Part shown: in pieces, positions 12,419 to 56,039 of the stretch
Layout: every line of letters begins with the position of its first letter
How positions within the stretch are numbered: the stretch's first letter is position 1
Assembly (NCBI RefSeq): GCF_009914755.1
Contig: NC_060940.1
Origin: the human T2T-CHM13v2.0 reference genome, Homo sapiens
Strand: one strand, 5' to 3'
DNA: 64,000 nt
Made by a program: the position numbers and the translations under genes
Notes under the pieces: model-generated
What the model saw: only the letters and a program-made list of their open reading frames with translations
What the model was told of the DNA's origin: nothing
Databases searched by the model: none

Positions 12419-12868
<450 letters not shown>

Positions 12869-12877
12869 CCTGGTGTG

Positions 12878-22712: not shown

Positions 22713-24298
22713 TCATGGCGTCTGAAGGACAAGGGTGAGGACAGTGAGCTGACCCGCTTGCTCCTGCTTCATCTGCCCACATGTCCCACGGCGCCTGCCT
22801 CTCCTATGCAGTCTCTCTGCCTTCGTGGGCAGCCCTGTGAGGCCTCCTGCCTGGGGCACGTTCTGCTGCTTTTCCTCTCAGCCCCGCTCCTCCCCTCCCA
22901 GCTCCCTGGATAAACCCCTCCCTCCCAGGACAAGCTGGTCTTTTGGGCCACCCAGGGGCGTGTTTGCTCTGCACTCTCCCATGAACCTGCAGGCGTGGGA
23001 ACGTTTCTTTTCCCTCGTGGCTGTTGAGGTGTGGTTCACTAACTGGAAACGCACACGTGTGGCTCAGTGAGTCTTCACACGCATCACAGGCCCGCACCTC
23101 CAGCAGAGTCGTGGGTGGGGTATTTTTTCTTTTTGTGAGAGGGAGGGGTGGCGTGGAGGGTGCACTGCAGGAACTGAAGGCTCCACTGCCATCCAGTTTC
23201 CAGTGGGATGTGTGTGTCTGTGGCTGCCGCGCGCTCCTCCCAGTCCCCAGGAAGTGCACAGGGAAGCGGCACCTTTGTTCCTGGAGAGAATTCCGGGTTG
23301 TCCAAGGCACATGTCTGAACCGCTTCGCTCTCTTTGCCGTTCCCTTGCCCCTTTTCTGTGAGGCCACCGGAGCCCATGGTTTTGCTGCTGCTACTGCTGG
23401 GATACCCTGGGGCTGGGCAGGCCCCAAGCTGAGCAGGGTGAGCACAACGTTTTACCAAATCTAAGGAACCAAGGGCAAGAACGAGGTCAGTGAAGGAGAG
23501 GATCAGGTGATTTCTGGGGTGACAGAGGCAATGAGACCTCGGCCATCTGGATCTCCCAGCGGGGGTCCTGTCAGTGGTGCCTCCTCGTAAAGCAGGGGCA
23601 GCAGCAGGGACCACTCCGCTCAGACCGCAAACAAAAGCGCCTTCCCTACTGCCCGTGAGGCTGCGGGAAATGCTGTGTGAGAGCGCGGGGACTCGGAGTT
23701 CTCAGGGCCCGTGTTCTCCTGCCAAGCCTGAGCTGACCCTGTGGGCCAAGATGGCTGCAGTTCTGCGGGTGGTTCTGAGCCCCTTGGGTGTGCCCGGCCC
23801 CACCCCTTGGGTGCCGCGGCCATTCACCCATGTCCGCGTTCTGCTGCAGAGCCTGCAAGCTGAGCCGGCTGTAGTCCCCGGATGTGCCTGGCCGCAGCCT
23901 GCAGCGCCGTGGCTGTTCACCCGTGATCAGCTCCGTGGTCGGCAGCTGCACGGTCACTGCTGTTCTTGAGCGTGGTTGTGAACAGCGCAGGAACTTTGCA
24001 GGGGACACCGCGGACCCTAAGCACATTGTTTACCCTCATTAGCTGTTGGACCTGCTTCCTTCTAAAATACACCCAACAGATCGTTTTCAAAAAACAAAGT
24101 CACGCCGTAGCGCAGACTGCAGCGTTGGTCCCGGGTGTCGCACAGTGGTGCTGTACCCACGGCCTGGGGCTCCTGCACTCGTGAAGGAGCTGCCACTTTT
24201 GCAAGCAAGGGCCGCCTCCTGAGGGGCTAAACCTGCCACCTTTGCACGCGAGAGCCACGTCCCAAGGGGCTAAACCTGCCTTTGGTTGTGCCGCGTAG

Positions 24299-26250: not shown

Positions 26251-27410
26251 TTCCGTGTGCCCTTTGGCTCATTCCATGCCTGCTTGGTTCCTGGGACTCT
26301 AGGGTAAGCGTGGACATGGGGGTTCAGGCCCAGGCAGGGACCAGCTGGTGCCAGGCAGCGATACGGTGCTGGGGCCTGCAAGGTGAGTGTGAGGGCTGGC
26401 TGGCTGCTGGGCTGGGAGGAGGAGAGACTGTAGGCTCACGCCCCTTTGCTGGGCCTGGGGAGCCATGGGGGCTGTTAAGTGTATTCTGAGTGTAAAGTCT
26501 CGGTTTGGCTGGGGCATCCTGAGCAGAATGACAGGGCCATGGCAGCGAGATCCTCAGCTGCCGTGCAGAGCTGCCAGTGGGGTGGCCGCACAGAGTGCAG
26601 TGCCTGCTGCAACAGTGCCCAGGGCAGTGGGCGGGTGGGGGCATGTTGTGAAAAGAAGTCAGTGTGAGTGATGAGAAATACATCCTAGTCTCAGACCCCA
26701 GGAAACCGCCGTCAGTGCTGGTGGCCCCTGCCCTGGGCCGGCTCCCGCGTTAGTCTCAGACCCCAGGAAACCTCCACCTCCGTCAGTGCTAGCGGCCCCT
26801 GCTCTGGGCTGACTCGCGCATCTCCACGATGGCTGCGGCACCAGCTGTTTCTTCGGTGGCTAAAGCTCTCTGGTGGAAATAAGATGGGGACCTTGAAATC
26901 AAATGTGACTGGTCTGTTGAGTCTCTGTCCTTATCGTTGTCCTTCTTAGTAGGATGTGCTGGTTTTGTCCAGTGCCACCGGCCACAGTCACCACGTAATA
27001 TGGACGGAATGAGCAAAGCCCGGCTCGCTGAGGCTGCAGGCTGCAGGCAAGTGAGGACTGAAAGGGTAACGGGCTCTGGGCTTTGTCCTCTCTTTGTTCC
27101 GGACATGTGAGCAGGACAAGTTCTGTGTATTCAGAATCTGTCTGCACAGTTTGTAGTTCATGATGACTGTTCATCCACAGCATTGCTTTGTGGGCGTCCT
27201 CTCTTTTGATCTTCTCGAAACAGCCCCTGCGATGGGGTCATATTTTGCACTCACATACAAGAACCCATGAGCCTGCCCACGGTCACGCGGCTGGTGAGTG
27301 ATGCACTTCCCAGGAGCACGGTGACCTCTTCAATGGCCCTCACTAGAGAAGATGGACAGTGCCCCCCTAGCCTTTTTTACTGGAACAGATACAAGGCTGA
27401 GAAGCTGAAA

Positions 27411-42722: not shown

Positions 42723-43640
<918 letters not shown>

Positions 43641-46060: not shown

Positions 46061-46768
46061 TGAAGACGTTTTCTTCTTTGAAAGCACAGGAACCACAGCC
46101 CTGTGGATTTTGCGAGTCGCGGGGCTCCCGGAGCCGCTGGGAGGGCAGCCGTGTGAGATGCGGGGCTGCGAGCGTGGAAACACTCGCAGTCGCCAGTGCT
46201 GAGGCATGTTTCAGCCGGGGCGGAATCACATGCATTAATTATTGTACAGAGATGTCTTTAGTAGAAAATGATTTTGAAATTCAGTTTAATTTCATTGTAA
46301 TGTGCTGCAAACAGGAAGGGAGTATGTGTGTTTAATTGGCTCTCGGGGGTAAGGCCTGGAAGCCGCATGTCTTTGTCACAGGCCATTAGCGATGCTGCTG
46401 CATAATGAGAGCCTGCAATCAGCTCACAGCTGCCGCTCCTGCCGGGAGAGCATGATATTAAATAGAAATCAGGAGAAATTAAACTTAACCCTTTCCCTGG
46501 CCAGCCCCTCCTGCCACACGGATTCTGGCATAAGCCGGCGGGCACAGGGGACAGCCAGGGATGGCTGGACACAGCTGAGGATGGCCGAGGCCGGCCTGCA
46601 GCTCCCCAACGGCCTCCTCCGGGTCAGGATGAGAGGAGAGGTTGCCAGCTTTGATGCCAGCCGCTCCTGCCTCCCCCACCTGCCTCTGTGCCTACAGCCC
46701 GCTTCTGCCTCAAGATCACACAGCGGGCTTGTGAGGCCAGGGGTCTCCGCTGCTGCTCAAGGAGATGG

Positions 46769-46925
46769 CAAAGGTCTGTTTCAGGTAACTCCTCTGACGG
46801 CCACAACGATGTCTTCAGACGTCAAAGGTCTGTCTCAGGTAACTCCTCTGACGGCCACAACGATGTCTTCAGACGTCAAAGGTCTGTCTCAGGTAACTCC
46901 TCTGACGGCCACAATGATCTCTGCA
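46769..46925. repeat. 54-bp tandem repeat x3
   Basis: CAAAGGTCTGT(T/C)TCAGGTAACTCCTCTGACGGCCACAA occurs three times. Confidence 0.92.
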
Positions 46926-49900: not shown

Positions 49901-52459
49901 ATGACCCCCTCTTTTTAACGTACAGGGTGTCCTCTGTCCCCAGACCCCTGAGCCCAGGTTGAGGAGCCACCAGCTGAGGACGGAGCCAAGGTCACGGAGC
50001 TGCCGGGTGAGCGCTGAGCCCAGGTCAGGGAGTTGGGTCTCAGGCCGTCACTGGGACTCCCTCTGCCTTCAAGAAGCCTCTTCCACCCTTGGCCCACAGA
50101 GGAGACCTGGATGGCACTGGGGTCCAGGTGCAGAAGCCTCCAGTGTCCACGGGCACCTGAGCTTCCAGCACCTTCCCTCCTGCTGGGCGGTGGCCTGTGC
50201 CTGGCCGCAATGGAGGCCGCCTTCCCCACTGCCCCTCTGAGCCTCAGTCTGTCCTCCCTGCAGCCACCTCCCCTGGCCAGGTGCCCCGGGGTAACTGGTG
50301 GAGGCTTTCACGTAACTTGGTTTCCAGCTGCCTCTGTACACACACAGGCACCTGTTCCAGGCTTGGCCTCTCTGTACACACACACGGGCACCTGTTCCAG
50401 GCTTGGAGGCTGAGAACTTGGGGGCAGAGATCTCAGGGCAGCGGCTTGGGCGGGGTCCTTGGGCAGGGCCTTGGGCTTCCCTCGGCACTTTCCTCAAGGA
50501 CTGGGGCCAAGCTTCACATTCTGTTGCTGGCATCAGTGCCATTTGGGAGCAAAAGTCCGACAGGCTGGGTCTGGGCCTCTCTTCACCTTGTTTCCTGGGA
50601 TCGCGCTTTGGGTGCTGGTGTCACTCCAGATCCAGGCTCGGGAACCACATCTGCACAGCAGAACAGGCGCTGTTCTTATCTTGCGTGCGGGTCAGGACAT
50701 CCCCCCGGCCAGGAGTGCTTCCTCCGAGGCCCACAGACAAGTTCTCGCTGGGGGACTGGGGACCACAGCACCTCACTCCACCTACACTCTAGAGAATTCA
50801 AATCTGAGTATTGGAAGATTTATTTTCAGTTACAGTGGAAGGCAGAGACATGAAATAGCACCAAATTCAAAAGCAGCTCATAAATCCAGGTAATAGGAGT
50901 TTATTGATTGCTACATTGTATCTGTCAGAAGAAAACTCCTTTAATGAACACATCAGGCCGAGGACATACACAGCCCATTGGCAGCCGACTCCGATTCCAG
51001 AATCGATGCATTTTGATAAATAGGTTGTTATGGAAAGTAAAGGTTATTTAACTTGTTTGACTTGCATTTCACAGTGATCGCAAGTTGCCCTGGAGCCCTC
51101 TGAACCTTCTGAGTCGCCCTCGCTGCCGCAGGACCTCCTCCCGCGGGGTGTCCGACCCGCTCTTGCTTGGCTGAGACTTTGTTTAAACCCTGGCTCCGAT
51201 GCCTCTGAGCCCTTGATAGCAGCGTCCCAGCCTGGAAGAACAAAACCAGCCACTTTTCCCCTTGGCAAAGGCACAGCAAGGCGGGTGAGGCGGGCGCTGA
51301 GTAGTCTGGGAATGGGCAGGGAGATGTCGACCCTCGGAGCTGAGACTGCTCTGTGCTGAGAAGCTAGAACAAAGCCTGACATGTTCCAAGGGGCAAGCTC
51401 AGGGCTGGGAGGGAAGCAGCGGGGCCGCCCCTTTGGGTGGGGGTGCCCAGGCCTTGCAGACAAGACACTGGCCAGAGGAGGTGGAGCAGGGGTACTGGGG
51501 CAGAGGGGCCATGTTTGTGCAGCAGGATGGACCCTGGAGGGCCCCGGCCTAGAGGGGGCCTTTGCCAGGAAGATGCCAGGAACGTCCAGGCCAAGGCGTC
51601 CGGGCAAAGGCATCCAGGCCCGGGAGACGCATGTGGGACTTGGGCTTTCCTCTGTGGGCAGTGGGAAGTCTCTCCCTACCCCTGGAAGGAGCTCCAGGCA
51701 GCAGTGAGGATGGGGATTCTGACACTGGAGTGGGGAGCCGGCCCTGTGGTGCTGGCTGGGCTGAGAGCGGCACCACCCTCTGATGCCCAGGGTGGGAAGG
51801 ACACACGACTGCCACCATGCACTGAGGGCCCTGCACGCCACACACGTGCTCTGAGCACTGAGGGTCCCCTCATGCCACGCACAAGTTCTGGGCACAGAAG
51901 CACCTCTCAGAATCGTCCCCGAGACAGGCGTCCGTCACAGAGACAGGTCTCAGTCCTGCACTGATTGGCTTCGCCCAGTGCTGCTGGGGGAGTCTCAGAC
52001 ACAGCCTTTTTCCGACAGGTATAGCTGCCACTTTCTCCGGCACAGAAGCCTGGGGCCCTGGGAATGGCACCATGTTGCGCGCCGACCCCTACGGTTCTTC
52101 CCTCCGCATGGCTCAGTGGAAACCGTGCGTGCAGCACAGCAGGCAGCTGGGGCCTGTGACGACCCTGGGGTTGGAGGCCAGGCAGGGCTATCACTGAGAA
52201 GCAGGGATTTGGGGCCTGGGGCCCAGGGAATGGACAACTCCCCAAGCTGCCCCCACCAGTCCTTCCTGAGCACTGGCTCCGGAAGAAGCATCTCGGGGCA
52301 GAGGCAGCCAGGCCCAGGCAGGGAGAGACCCCCAAACAAGGCCTACAGCAGGGTCTCAGGGCCTGACCATGCCAGAAACAGCCCAGAGCCAGAGAGGATG
52401 GGCAGATACTCAGTGCCACCACTCCTGGGAGATCTCAGCACCAGGGCTTCGACCTCTGG

Positions 52460-52812
52460 GGATACACACCCACACCTGCTGAGATATAACACATCTGCAG
52501 AGACACAGCCACGCCTGCAGAGACATACCCACACCTGCAGACACACCCACACCTGCAGACACACCCACACCTGCAGAGACACAGCCACACCTGCAGACAC
52601 ACCCACACCTGCAGACACCTACACCTGCAGGCACACCCACACCTGCAGACAGAGCCACACCTGCAGAGACACCCTCACCTGCAGAGATACAGGCACACCT
52701 GCAGAGACACAGCCACACCTATAGACACACCCACACCTGCAGAGACACACCCACACCTACAGAGACACCCACACCTGCAGACACACCCACACCTGCAGAC
52801 ACACCCACACCT
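52460..52812. repeat. 18-20-bp minisatellite (GACACACCCACACCTGCA)n
   Basis: About 18 degenerate copies. Confidence 0.92.
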
Positions 52813-53270: not shown

Positions 53271-55126
53271 AGCCAGGACACAGGCAGCTCAAGAGGGTGC
53301 CGGGGACTTGTCAGCCTTGGGGGCAGGCAGTGATGGCCTCTCCGGCAGGACCAGAGCAGGGCAGTGGCTCCATGCTGCGCTGGGTCTCTGGGTGGTGCAG
53401 GCCAGGGTGGAGCCAGGCCAGAAGCTGTATGGAGGGCCCTGAGCACCTGGCAGCCTCCCTGGTGTCAGCAGCTGTGGCATCCGTGGGGCAGGAGCAGCCT
53501 GGACGGGGTGGCTCGGTGCGATTAAGAGATGCTATTGGAAGATTGGTGGCTGTCTGGTCCAGAGGGGACACACAAGCCAGGCTGCACAGCAGGAGCAGGA
53601 GCCATGGCGGGTCCCACGGGACTTGGGACAGGCTGTGTCCAACCCCGCCCACAGCCCAACCTGCACACCCCCTTCCAGCCGCCCAGACTACCCCAGGGGC
53701 GCAGTGAGACCACTCTCCTGTCGGGGAGCCTCTGGTTTTTCTGCTACCCATCAGCACAGAGTTCCAGAGTTCCAGAGCTCCATAAATAAGCCTGGAGCCC
53801 ACCTGGGCACACCCATCCGTCTTGTTTAATAGACTGAGGAGCACGCCATGGGTCTCAAGGAGTGGTGAGGTGATGGATGGGGCCTTTCTGCGTCCAACAG
53901 CATGATGTATAATGAAGTATTTATGATTTATTCCAGCTAATAACCCATGTGGAGTGCAGGGTATGTGGAAGCAGACAGTTGAGGCCTCAGCACTGCCCTT
54001 ACATGCCCTGCATGCTCCCACAGCCACGGCACACATGTGTGCGTGCACATGCTCACAGTCACGCATACCGCGCCCTCCCAGCTGCACACACGCTTGCAGG
54101 CACGCACACTATGGGCCCATGCGTCATGAGACAGCTTCGGGCTGGGAGTACAGGCTCTGAGGCTGCAGCCCGCTCTTCCCGACTCCCCACCCTCAGTGGC
54201 TGGTGGTGTCTGTGTTGAGCTACTCGAGAAAGGAAGAAAACGAAGGAAGCTTGGTTCCCACAGGAGCTCCAGGAACTGCACGGGGAGGAGCAAGGGCCAC
54301 ATCGTGGCTTTGCCTTAGGAAGGAAAACGTGGGGCAGCCCCGGCCATTGTTCTAGGACCAGCATGGTCAGGTGTGGAGGGCACAAGATGGGCACCAGCAG
54401 GAGGCTCCAGGCACCCAGGAAAGGCCCTGTCCTCCTCAGCCACCAGCCCCTCCCTGTGGCCTCTGCGTGGGCCTTGGTGCCTCTCCCATCCAGAGGGGCT
54501 GGGCATTCACTGCTGGAGCCCACCGTGGTGGGATGTTGTAATGTGTCTGGTTCACTTCTTTTACTGAATATTTGGCCTGGATTCTTTTGTGGGCCTGAGA
54601 GAAATGGCAGGACAGGGCCTGGTGGGCCTCGGCCCCTCTCCCAGAGCAGCCTGCCTGCATGAGGGGCGGCCCCTCTATGCTGCAGTCCCAGGGGCTCCGT
54701 CTGGGGGCCCTTGCAGCAGTAGCAGCACAGCCAGGAGGCCCAGCACACCCTGGCACCCATCCTGAGGGAGGGTAAAGCATCAGACCCTGTGCTTGTTGCT
54801 CAGAAAAGGCCACGCATCCCACCCATGGCCAGTGGTTATCAATCACTGTCACAGAAACAGGGCCTGAGCCGGCTTCCTAATGCAGGGTGTCTGCAGACCA
54901 CAGGCCCAGCAGGGCTTCTGGCACCTCCTGCTCCTGGCAGGCTCTGGACCCACTGCTGACCTGCCCCTGGAGGAAGTGCATACAGCTGAGCATGGGGAAG
55001 GGACCCCACAGGAAGGGCAGACCCCACATCATGGGCACAGTCCCACCTTGGGACGCACGTCGTGACCACCAGAAATGTGGGCTTACCTGGCATAGCTGTT
55101 TCTCCGTTGGGGTTGCCACAGGGTAG

Positions 55127-55285
55127 TAACCAGAGCCCCCTTTCCTCAGAGGACACCGTGGTGTTTAAGGACGGCCAGTTAACCAGAGCCCCTTTTCCTC
55201 AGGGGACACCGTGGTGTTTAAGGATGGCCAGTTAACCAGAGCCCCTTTTCCTCAGGGGACACCGTGGTGTTTAAGGATGGCCAGT
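55127..55285 (+). repeat. 53-bp tandem triplication spanning the intron 8/exon 9 junction
   Basis: Units start at 55127, 55180 and 55233; AGs end at 55149, 55202 and 55255. Confidence 0.97.
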
Positions 55286-55390
55286 ACTGGATCCGAGGCC
55301 GGACCTCAGTGGACATCATCAAGACTGGAGGCTACAAGGTCAGCGCCCTGGAGGTGGAGTGGCACCTGCTGGCCCACCCCAGCATCACAG
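55256..55390 (+). CDS. ACSF3: ACSF3 coding exon 9 (135 nt, in-frame acceptor)
   Basis: TTTTCCTCAG|GG ... CAG|GTGCGT. Completes TGD and encodes [21 protein letters not shown]. Only this third AG keeps the frame. Confidence 0.94.
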
Positions 55391-55589
55391 GTGCGTGGCC
55401 GGACTTGGGCCAGGGAGGCCAGGCTAGACGGGTGCTGCCTTCCATGTTTGAGTTTTAGACGACTGCAGATGAGTCGACGCCGTCCCAGCTGCCTGCAGGG
55501 GTCCCTGTGATGCTCACCTCTGGTCCCTGCCCTGGCCAGGGAACATGGGGCTAGTGGGGGTGCAGCCTGCTCGGTGTTGGAGCCACTGA

Positions 55590-56039
<450 letters not shown>

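What the first reader, a model, noticed from the sequence alone, without database searches (positions are those of the whole stretch)
55127..55285. Exon 9 3' splice site is tandemly triplicated: two out-of-frame decoy acceptors precede the only in-frame one
Seen: a 53-bp unit (TAAC branch-point-like motif, pyrimidine tract, CAG, first 30 nt of exon 9) occurs three times. Copies 2 and 3 are identical; copy 1 differs at three positions. Splicing exon 8 to copy 3 (55256) gives the conserved KTGD. Splicing to copy 2 (55203) adds 53 nt and shifts the frame to a TGA at 55936-55938 in exon 10, 100 nt upstream of the next junction, which fits the usual NMD rule. Splicing to copy 1 (55150) reaches TAA at 55233-55235. 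Established: spliceosomes usually take an AG just downstream of a branch point, so an identical upstream site should compete. Inference: this may be a built-in unproductive-splicing valve whose copy number tunes ACSF3 dose, making it a candidate splice-QTL VNTR and CMAMMA modifier. I cannot tell from here whether it has been described.
Basis: partly seen in the sequence, partly recalled or inferred. Interest (0 to 1): 0.8.

Follow-up and report, generated by a model that had tools for sequence, protein, structure and literature searches.

The report
Triplicated splice acceptor in human ACSF3
A 53-base stretch spanning the start of ACSF3 exon 9 is present three times in a row, giving two extra out-of-frame splice acceptors, but the copy number looks fixed in people, so it is more likely a constant small splicing leak than a tunable dose control.

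Summary
Window 55127-55285 is an exact 3.0-copy tandem repeat of 53 bp: 23 nt of intron (TAAC, a 12-nt pyrimidine tract, CAG) plus the first 30 nt of exon 9. Copies 2 and 3 are identical; copy 1 differs at 3 positions. Only acceptor 55256 is in frame (FKTGD...). Acceptor 55203 leads to TGA at 55936-55938, 100 nt before the exon 10 donor. Acceptor 55150 leads to TAA at 55233-55235.

The hub's RefSeq table already lists an exon 55203-55390, so use of the copy-2 acceptor is annotated. The locus is in a published VNTR catalogue (Lu et al. 2021, supplementary data). There GRCh38 is 160 bp, 16 long-read genomes average 160.0 bp (SD 0.4), VST is 0.0000, and it is not an expression QTL. A common copy-number "valve" or splice-QTL VNTR is therefore not supported.

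My best reading is a fixed tandem duplication in a minisatellite-rich gene, which causes a constitutive leak into NMD-targeted mRNA of unmeasured size. I found no open-access paper describing it. It is a new member of a known kind, of moderate interest.

The parts
55127..55179 (+). Repeat copy 1: degenerate decoy 3' splice site (acceptor at 55150, +106 nt, stop at 55233-55235)
   Evidence: It differs from copies 2 and 3 at 3 positions: the pyrimidine tract has C for T, the first exon base is A instead of G (giving CAG|A and KTED instead of KTGD), and GAC replaces GAT. Its branch-like motif is GTAAC, which misses the first y of yUnAy.
55180..55232 (+). Repeat copy 2: decoy 3' splice site identical to the authentic one (acceptor at 55203, +53 nt, stop in exon 10)
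   Evidence: It has TTAAC at 55179-55183 (a perfect yUnAy match, with the leading T supplied by the preceding unit), a 12-nt pyrimidine run and CAG|G. The hub table lists exon 55203-55390 in another RefSeq transcript.
55233..55285 (+). Repeat copy 3: the authentic 3' splice site of exon 9 (acceptor at 55256) and the first 30 nt of exon 9
   Evidence: It is the only in-frame acceptor. TTAAC lies at 55232-55236, and the branch-like A at 55235 is 20 nt before the G of the AG at 55254-55255.
55256..55390 (+). Exon 9 of ACSF3 (NM_001243279.3). It encodes the stretch after the TGD motif, at the hinge and start of the C-terminal domain of an adenylate-forming enzyme
   Evidence: Hub table. The 44-aa exon translation matches AMP-binding enzymes and Malonyl-CoA Ligase 3nyq (E 2.6e-05) over query residues 6-43.
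55936..55938 (+). TGA reached when acceptor 55203 is used. It lies 100 nt upstream of the exon 10 donor (56038)
43092..43218 (+). Exon 8, whose donor (TTAAGACAG|gtagga) pairs with the triplicated acceptors across a 12-kb intron
   Evidence: Hub table

Best explanation
A 53-bp segment spanning the intron 8/exon 9 boundary of human ACSF3 was tandemly duplicated twice. In the human genomes examined it stands at three copies. Each unit carries everything a 3' splice site needs: a branch-point-like TAAC, a 12-nt pyrimidine tract and CAG. The pre-mRNA therefore offers three acceptors 53 nt apart, all facing the same exon 9 donor. Only the last gives ACSF3 protein. The middle one is identical to it and is used at some level, giving a +53-nt mRNA with a premature stop in exon 10, which should be degraded by NMD. 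The first has been weakened by substitutions. The most likely status is a fixed by-product of the high local rate of minisatellite-type duplication. It imposes a constitutive leak of unknown size into unproductive mRNA, and it is not a copy-number-variable dose control. Shown here: the anatomy, the frames, the stop positions, the three-copy state in CHM13 and GRCh38, and the length invariance in a published panel. Inferred: branch-point use, NMD sensitivity, the size of the leak, the order of the duplications, and neutrality.
For: Copies 2 and 3 each have a perfect yUnAy match (TTAAC), while copy 1 has GTAAC, a C-for-T change in the tract and A at exon position +1. The Gly of the TGD motif is conserved in this enzyme superfamily (recalled knowledge), so A at +1 in copy 1 is probably a derived change. 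The hub RefSeq table lists exon 55203-55390. For fixed copy number, Lu et al. 2021 supplementary data give ref.len 160, asm.len 160.0, SD 0.4, asm.n 16, VST 0.0000 and eqtl False, with a marker k-mer that matches the copy junction. CHM13 has 159 bp. The local context is tandem-repeat-rich: 24 TRF arrays cover 8.1% of the window. 2 of the 26 exon ends I listed lie inside arrays, and the other one is a 54-bp x3 repeat over the donor of alternative exon 46503-46784. About 2 of 26 would be expected from coverage alone. The other annotated alternative exons also break the main frame (97-nt exon: stop at 43106; 210-nt exon: stop at 51101). Unproductive isoforms are therefore common in this gene's annotation.
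Against: No RNA data were available, so the share of splicing that goes to 55203 or 55150 is unknown. It could be large, because copy 2 is identical to the real site and NMD would hide its product. It could also be near zero. The hub table does not say which transcript holds exon 55203-55390. That transcript could start at the internal first exon 46503 rather than include exon 8. The panel is small: 16 genomes, which I read as 32 haplotypes, plus two references. That puts the upper 95% bound for other alleles at about 8%, so rare 2- or 4-copy alleles are not excluded. I read the column names asm.n and asm.len.std without a column description. A strong GTEx lung sQTL for ACSF3 exists (rs8043697, effect -0.8; table in PMC13399529), and I could not establish which intron it concerns. 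No primate sequence could be examined, so age and fixation history are inference.
Confidence: 0.6

Rival explanations
1. One reading: the repeat is a VNTR whose copy number varies among people and tunes ACSF3 output through unproductive splicing, making it a splice-QTL and a modifier of CMAMMA.
For: The decoy acceptors are complete, and copy 2 is identical to the real site. ACSF3 has a strong GTEx sQTL of unknown intron. ACSF3 dose has been tied to height and basal metabolic rate through a distal enhancer variant (PMC12230238: abstract in the listing, passages).
Against: In Lu et al. 2021 the length is 160.0 +/- 0.4 bp in 16 long-read genomes, GRCh38 is 160 bp, VST is 0.0000 and the locus is not an eVNTR in GTEx. 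CHM13 has the same three copies. The locus is absent from the VNTR rows shown for chr16:89.12-89.16 Mb in Eslami Rasekh et al. 2021 and from the ACSF3 rows of the Bakhtiari et al. 2021 target list. Either absence may reflect design limits of those studies.
Confidence: 0.06
2. A fixed-copy but regulated switch: trans-acting factors (SR proteins, hnRNPs, U2AF level) shift the choice between the identical copy-2 and copy-3 acceptors, so the cell sets ACSF3 output by AS-NMD.
For: Two identical sites 53 nt apart should be finely balanced, so small changes in factor levels could move the ratio (inference). In classic in-vitro work on duplicated 3' splice sites, the choice depended on SR protein level and on the adjacent exon sequence (recalled, not read here).
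Against: No data on tissue or condition dependence were available. Searches pairing ACSF3 with splicing terms found nothing relevant. No RNA structure signal was found around the sites (z = +1.08; 87 of 100 shuffles fold at least as well).
Confidence: 0.14
3. Silent relic: the upstream copies are essentially never used. The downstream site wins because it lies closer to exon 9 enhancers and to the exon 9 donor, and the RefSeq exon 55203-55390 reflects rare noise or a transcript from the internal promoter.
For: The main annotated transcript uses 55256. Copy 1 is visibly weakened. The hub table does not link 55203 to exon 8. Short junction reads with 30 nt or less of overhang cannot tell 55203 from 55256, so apparent use in short-read data could be mis-assignment (this follows).
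Against: Copy 2 has the same 53 nt as the real site, including the branch motif, tract and AG. A curated or modelled RefSeq transcript does contain the +53 exon (hub table).
Confidence: 0.2

Closest known systems
Alternative 3' splice site use coupled to nonsense-mediated decay (unproductive splicing, AS-NMD)
   Same: An upstream AG adds a number of bases that is not a multiple of three. The stop then lies more than 50-55 nt before a later exon junction, and the isoform is listed beside the coding one (hub table).
   Different: Here the alternative site is an exact 53-nt copy of the authentic site rather than a weaker cryptic AG, and there are two such copies. NMD sensitivity and usage were not measured.
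Splice sites and alternative splicing born from tandem arrays: Zhuo et al. 2007 PNAS (recalled, not read); De Grassi and Ciccarelli 2009 Genome Biol, PMC2812944 (title and start of abstract only, listing)
   Same: Tandem repeats inside genes supply extra splice signals and alter gene structure.
   Different: Those reports, as I recall them, concern repeats that create new introns or exons, often in young paralogues. Here a constitutive coding exon of a disease gene has its own acceptor triplicated.
ERAP2 exon 9-flanking 101-bp tandem duplication, reported as an eVNTR in Lu et al. 2021 (passages read)
   Same: A short tandem duplication lies next to an exon of a protein-coding gene and appears in the same catalogue.
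   Different: The ERAP2 duplication is polymorphic (17 of 38 haplotypes) and associated with expression (effect -0.52). The ACSF3 array is length-invariant in that panel and is flagged eqtl False.
NAGNAG and other tandem acceptors
   Same: Several AG acceptors compete for one intron.
   Different: NAGNAG sites are 3 nt apart, share one branch point and tract, and keep the frame. Here the sites are 53 nt apart, each has its own branch motif and tract, and the frame shifts. Copy 1 does contain CAGAG, with two AGs 2 nt apart.
Artificial duplicated 3' splice-site constructs used to study splice-site choice, such as beta-globin duplications (Reed and Maniatis 1986; recalled, not read)
   Same: Identical 3' splice sites in tandem compete in cis.
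   Different: Those are engineered substrates. This is a natural genomic arrangement.

Membership tests
VNTR / minisatellite | Head-to-tail copies of a unit of roughly 10-100 bp | tested here: met
   53 bp x 3.0 copies, 97% matches, TRF score 297
VNTR / minisatellite | Copy number varies among individuals | tested here: not met
   Lu et al. 2021 supplementary data: ref.len 160, asm.len 160.0, SD 0.4, asm.n 16, VST 0.0000. CHM13 has 159 bp. The sample is small, so rare alleles are not excluded.
Unproductive alternative 3' splice site (AS-NMD) | A competent alternative acceptor (branch motif, pyrimidine tract, AG) | tested here: met
   Copy 2 is identical to the authentic site over 53 nt, with TTAAC, a 12-nt Y run and CAG|G. 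This is sequence inspection only; no scoring model was available.
Unproductive alternative 3' splice site (AS-NMD) | The alternative acceptor is used in vivo | not testable with these tools
   The only evidence is the hub's RefSeq table, which lists exon 55203-55390 among exons of other transcripts. No RNA data were at hand. Nothing is annotated for 55150.
Unproductive alternative 3' splice site (AS-NMD) | A premature stop more than about 50-55 nt upstream of a downstream exon-exon junction | tested here: met
   With 55203, TGA at 55936-55938 lies 100 nt before the exon 10 donor. With 55150, TAA at 55233-55235 lies 155 nt before the exon 9 donor.
Unproductive alternative 3' splice site (AS-NMD) | The isoform rises when NMD is blocked | not testable with these tools
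   This needs UPF1 or SMG1 inhibition data. The search for ACSF3 plus NMD gave 8 papers, none about this by title or abstract start.
NAGNAG tandem acceptor | Two AGs 3 nt apart sharing one branch point, with the frame kept | tested here: not met
   The spacing is 53 nt and the frame shifts.
ANL adenylate-forming enzyme (host gene ACSF3) | Exon 9 encodes the conserved segment after TGD (DG.....GR..D.IK..G) | tested here: met
   The 44-aa exon 9 translation matches 47 PDB sequences at E <= 1. The best are 3etc AMP-binding protein (1.9e-05) and 3nyq Malonyl-CoA Ligase (2.6e-05). A Pfam scan of the short exon alone gave 0 families.

The most novel reading that the evidence does not exclude
The identical middle acceptor captures a sizeable share (10% or more) of ACSF3 intron 8 splicing events, and NMD hides this share. 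A tandem duplication fixed in the human or ape lineage would then have permanently lowered, or made factor-dependent, the output of the mitochondrial malonyl-CoA synthetase. Blocking the decoys with an antisense oligonucleotide would raise ACSF3 protein, which could help carriers of hypomorphic CMAMMA alleles.
Probability: 0.2. Interest if true: 0.6.

Novelty: new member of a known kind. Interest (0 to 1): 0.35.

Why it matters
ACSF3 is the gene for combined malonic and methylmalonic aciduria, and its dose has been linked to height and basal metabolic rate (PMC12230238: abstract in the listing, passages). A built-in competitor identical to the productive acceptor is a natural duplicated-splice-site experiment in a human disease gene. 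It could waste part of the transcript output, and it would be an obvious antisense target if that waste is large.

It also has a practical consequence. Junction reads with 30 nt or less of exon 9 overhang cannot be assigned between 55203 and 55256. DNA reads inside the 159 bp are also ambiguous, so splice counts, sQTL calls and variant calls in the first 30 nt of exon 9 need care. If the leak is small, the feature is a curiosity produced by a minisatellite-rich subtelomeric region.

Tried and rejected
- ACSF3+VNTR: 0 papers.
- ACSF3+tandem repeat+splicing: 6 papers, of which 5 were listed, none relevant by title or abstract start.
- ACSF3+53 bp: 1 paper; the 53 bp there refers to another locus.
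- ACSF3+sQTL: 2 papers.
- ACSF3+alternative splicing+nonsense-mediated: 0 papers.
- ACSF3 plus genomic coordinate prefixes: 0 papers.
- ACSF3 alone: 529 papers, 40 listed, none on this repeat by title.
- ACSF3+A3SS: 2 papers, not opened.
- ACSF3+NMD: 8 papers, none relevant by title or abstract start.
- Supplements are not covered by these searches.

**VNTR catalogues.**
- The Bakhtiari 2021 supplement has two ACSF3 rows, both in the 3' end of the gene and not this locus.
- The Eslami Rasekh 2021 supplement has one ACSF3 eQTL VNTR. It is the 23-bp array at chr16:89160342, downstream of the gene.

**Coordinate anchoring.** I compared an upstream hg38 anchor with a 3'-UTR VNTR anchor. CHM13 came out a net 65-66 bp longer across 23 kb. 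That first looked like one extra unit, but the Lu et al. row places about 34 bp of it before the repeat and about 31 bp after it, and shows GRCh38 with three copies.

**Frame rescue.** None of the other annotated alternative exons (97, 282 or 210 nt) restores the frame of the +53 isoform.

**RNA structure.** Folding 55060-55400 gave no signal (z = +1.08).

**Orthologue evidence through protein databases.**
- The frameshifted exon 9 peptide found one 201-aa ORF call on a non-human mammalian ACSF3 stretch. It starts inside exon 9, so it is uninformative about the duplication.
- The 113-aa stop-to-stop ORF across copies 2-3 found nothing in the 62-198 aa range.
- No primate or other vertebrate DNA collection was available, so the age of the duplications could not be tested.

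**Other.** The search of earlier findings was not open. No splice-site scoring model (such as MaxEntScan) is installed, so site strengths are compared by inspection only.

Full report
**What is in the sequence.**
- Window 55127-55285 is a perfect-phase tandem triplication of a 53-bp unit (TRF period 53, 3.0 copies, 97% matches, no indels, score 297).
- The copies start at 55127, 55180 and 55233. Copies 2 and 3 are identical.
- Copy 1 differs at three positions: C for T in the pyrimidine tract, A for G at the first exon base, and C for T in the exonic part, where copy 1 has a CpG.
- With up to 3 mismatches the unit occurs only at these three places in the window. 0 of 100 shuffles gave three or more matches.
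- The 159-bp array matches one place only in the 3.1-Gb assembly, so it is not part of a dispersed repeat family.
- Each unit consists of 23 intronic nt (TAAC, then CAGAG, a 12-nt pyrimidine run CCCCTTTTCCTC, and AG) followed by the first 30 nt of exon 9.

**Reading frames.** I joined the annotated coding exons by coordinate.
- The CDS through exon 8 is 1366 nt, so exon 9 must begin in phase 1.
- Acceptor 55256 keeps the frame open through exon 10 and reads ...[32 protein letters not shown]....
- Acceptor 55203 adds 53 nt and stops at TGA 55936-55938, 100 nt before the exon 10 donor (56038).
- Acceptor 55150 adds 106 nt, changes KTGD to KTED and stops at TAA 55233-55235.
- The 44 residues encoded by exon 9 align with the segment after the TGD motif of adenylate-forming enzymes, including Malonyl-CoA Ligase 3nyq (E 2.6e-05; 47 PDB sequences at E <= 1). 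A product frameshifted there would lack the rest of the C-terminal domain.

**Splice-site anatomy.**
- Between 55060 and 55260 the only perfect yUnAy matches are CTTAC at 55082 and TTAAC at 55179 and 55232.
- The two TTAAC motifs belong to copies 2 and 3. Their first T is the last base of the preceding unit, so the duplication junction itself completes the consensus.
- Copy 1 has GTAAC instead. In copies 2 and 3 the branch-like A lies 20 nt before the G of the AG.
- Copy 1 is thus weaker on three counts: the branch motif, one U fewer in the tract, and CAG|A instead of CAG|G. Copy 2 matches the real site over the whole 53 nt.
- By the established first-AG-after-the-branch rule, the choice among the three acceptors should be made when U2AF and U2 pick one of the three branch/tract modules (inference).
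- No local RNA structure stands out (z = +1.08; 87 of 100 shuffles fold at least as well).
- No splice-site scoring model was available, so these comparisons are by inspection.

**Is the decoy used?**
- I had no RNA data. The hub's RefSeq table lists exon 55203-55390 among exons of other transcripts, so the copy-2 acceptor is already annotated. Nothing is listed for 55150.
- The table does not say which transcript carries it.
- Exon 46503-46784 has no AG in front of it. It also lies 3846 nt after rs11646135, which matches a -3847 TSS distance in a published table. It is therefore an internal first exon in intron 8, and the +53 exon might belong to transcripts that start there.
- None of the other annotated alternative exons restores the +53 frame, and two of them are themselves frame-breaking.

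- Supplementary data of Lu et al. 2021 (PMC8275641; the header row read, the locus row) list chr16:89145136-89145296 (GRCh38).
- The values are ref.len 160, asm.len 160.0, asm.len.std 0.4, asm.n 16, len.vst 0.0000, len.p 0.435 and eqtl False. The marker k-mer is GTTAACCAGAGCCCCTTTTCC, which is the junction of our units.
- GRCh38 therefore has three copies like CHM13. A single 53-bp change among the 16 long-read genomes would have given an SD of several bp.
- That study's main text (passages) describes 19 haplotype-resolved genomes and GTEx eQTL mapping. I read asm.n as the number of genomes, without having seen a column description.
- Taking 32 haplotypes plus two references with no variant, the 95% upper bound for other alleles is about 8% (my arithmetic).
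- Two other VNTR studies do not list the locus in the tables I could see. Their ACSF3 entries are other arrays.
- An apparent 65-66 bp excess of CHM13 over GRCh38 between two anchors lies outside the repeat.

**Context.**
- The window is rich in minisatellites: 24 TRF arrays of score >= 100 cover 5200 bp, or 8.1%.
- 2 of the 26 exon ends I listed fall inside arrays, about what coverage alone predicts.
- The second case mirrors the first. A 54-bp x3 repeat at 46763-46924 triplicates the GT donor of alternative exon 46503-46784.
- This favours a mutational origin, meaning locally frequent tandem duplication, over design.

**History (inference).**
- Copies 2 and 3 are identical, while copy 1 differs by 3 of 53. 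This fits an older first duplication and a younger second one, or later homogenisation.
- The A at +1 of copy 1 is probably derived, because the Gly of TGD is conserved in the superfamily (recalled).
- The CpG in copy 1 suggests that C is ancestral at the third site.
- No vertebrate DNA collection was available to test any of this, and attempts through protein databases were uninformative.

**Literature.**
- Ten searches of the open-access library found no paper that describes this repeat or its splice consequences. Supplements are not covered by these searches.
- Paper reading closed before I could check unproductive-splicing tables.
- A table in PMC13399529 reports a GTEx lung sQTL for ACSF3 (rs8043697, -0.8). 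The intron involved is unknown to me.
- PMC12230238 ties ACSF3 dose to height and basal metabolic rate through a distal enhancer. It notes that tandem repeats were not analysed (passages).

**Verdict.**
- The mechanism I consider most likely (0.6) is a fixed tandem triplication. It gives a constitutive leak of unmeasured size into an NMD-targeted +53 isoform that is already annotated.
- The copy-number valve is unlikely (0.06).
- A factor-regulated switch (0.14) and a silent relic (0.2) remain open.
- It is a new member of a known kind (alternative 3' splice site with NMD, born from tandem duplication).
- It is moderately interesting, and it carries a practical warning about read assignment in the first 30 nt of exon 9.

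Noticed in passing
window 46763-46924: A second tandem triplication (54 bp x3; copies 94% and 89% identical to the first) straddles the donor of the alternative first exon 46503-46784. The annotated donor is TTTCAG|GTAACTCC at 46784/5. Near-identical copies TCTCAG|GTAACTCC follow at 46838/9 and 46892/3. It is the 5'-splice-site mirror image of the exon 9 case.
   Followed up: partly
window 46503-46784: This annotated exon has no AG before it (ctggcc|AGCCCC). It lies 3846 nt downstream of rs11646135 (window 42657), matching the '-3847 ACSF3' TSS distance in a supplement of PMC13399529. It is therefore an internal transcription start within intron 8.
   Followed up: partly
window 26950-27046 and 51075-51284: The 97-nt alternative exon has a GC donor (CTGCAG|gcaagt) and shifts the frame to a stop at 43106-43108. 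The 210-nt alternative exon carries an in-frame stop at 51101-51103. Both look like poison exons in the main reading frame.
   Followed up: partly
whole window: Minisatellite density is high: 24 TRF arrays of score >= 100 cover 8.1% of the 64 kb. Arrays also end within 30 nt of the exon 4 donor (12723-12874) and the exon 6 acceptor (24190-24280).
   Followed up: no
window 55148-55151: The G-to-A difference in copy 1 creates CAGAG, two AGs 2 nt apart, so copy 1 offers two adjacent possible acceptors (55150 and 55152).
   Followed up: no
window 52464-52812 and L002 1350-1422, 1927-2022, 3466-4000: Other arrays near the 3' end of the gene appear in published VNTR tables. Examples are hg38 chr16:89142454-89142822 (ref 368 bp, assemblies 362.8 +/- 7.6) and two 3'-end arrays in Bakhtiari 2021. 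An ACSF3 expression-associated 23-bp VNTR lies downstream at hg38 chr16:89160342-89160481 (FDR 4.63e-06 in Eslami Rasekh 2021).
   Followed up: partly
P0001: The protein database holds a 201-aa ORF call that reads straight through exon 9 (shifted frame), intron 9 and exon 10 of a non-human mammalian ACSF3. It is a prokaryote-style gene call on mammalian DNA, and its Pfam tag PF13193 comes from the exon 10 part.
   Followed up: partly
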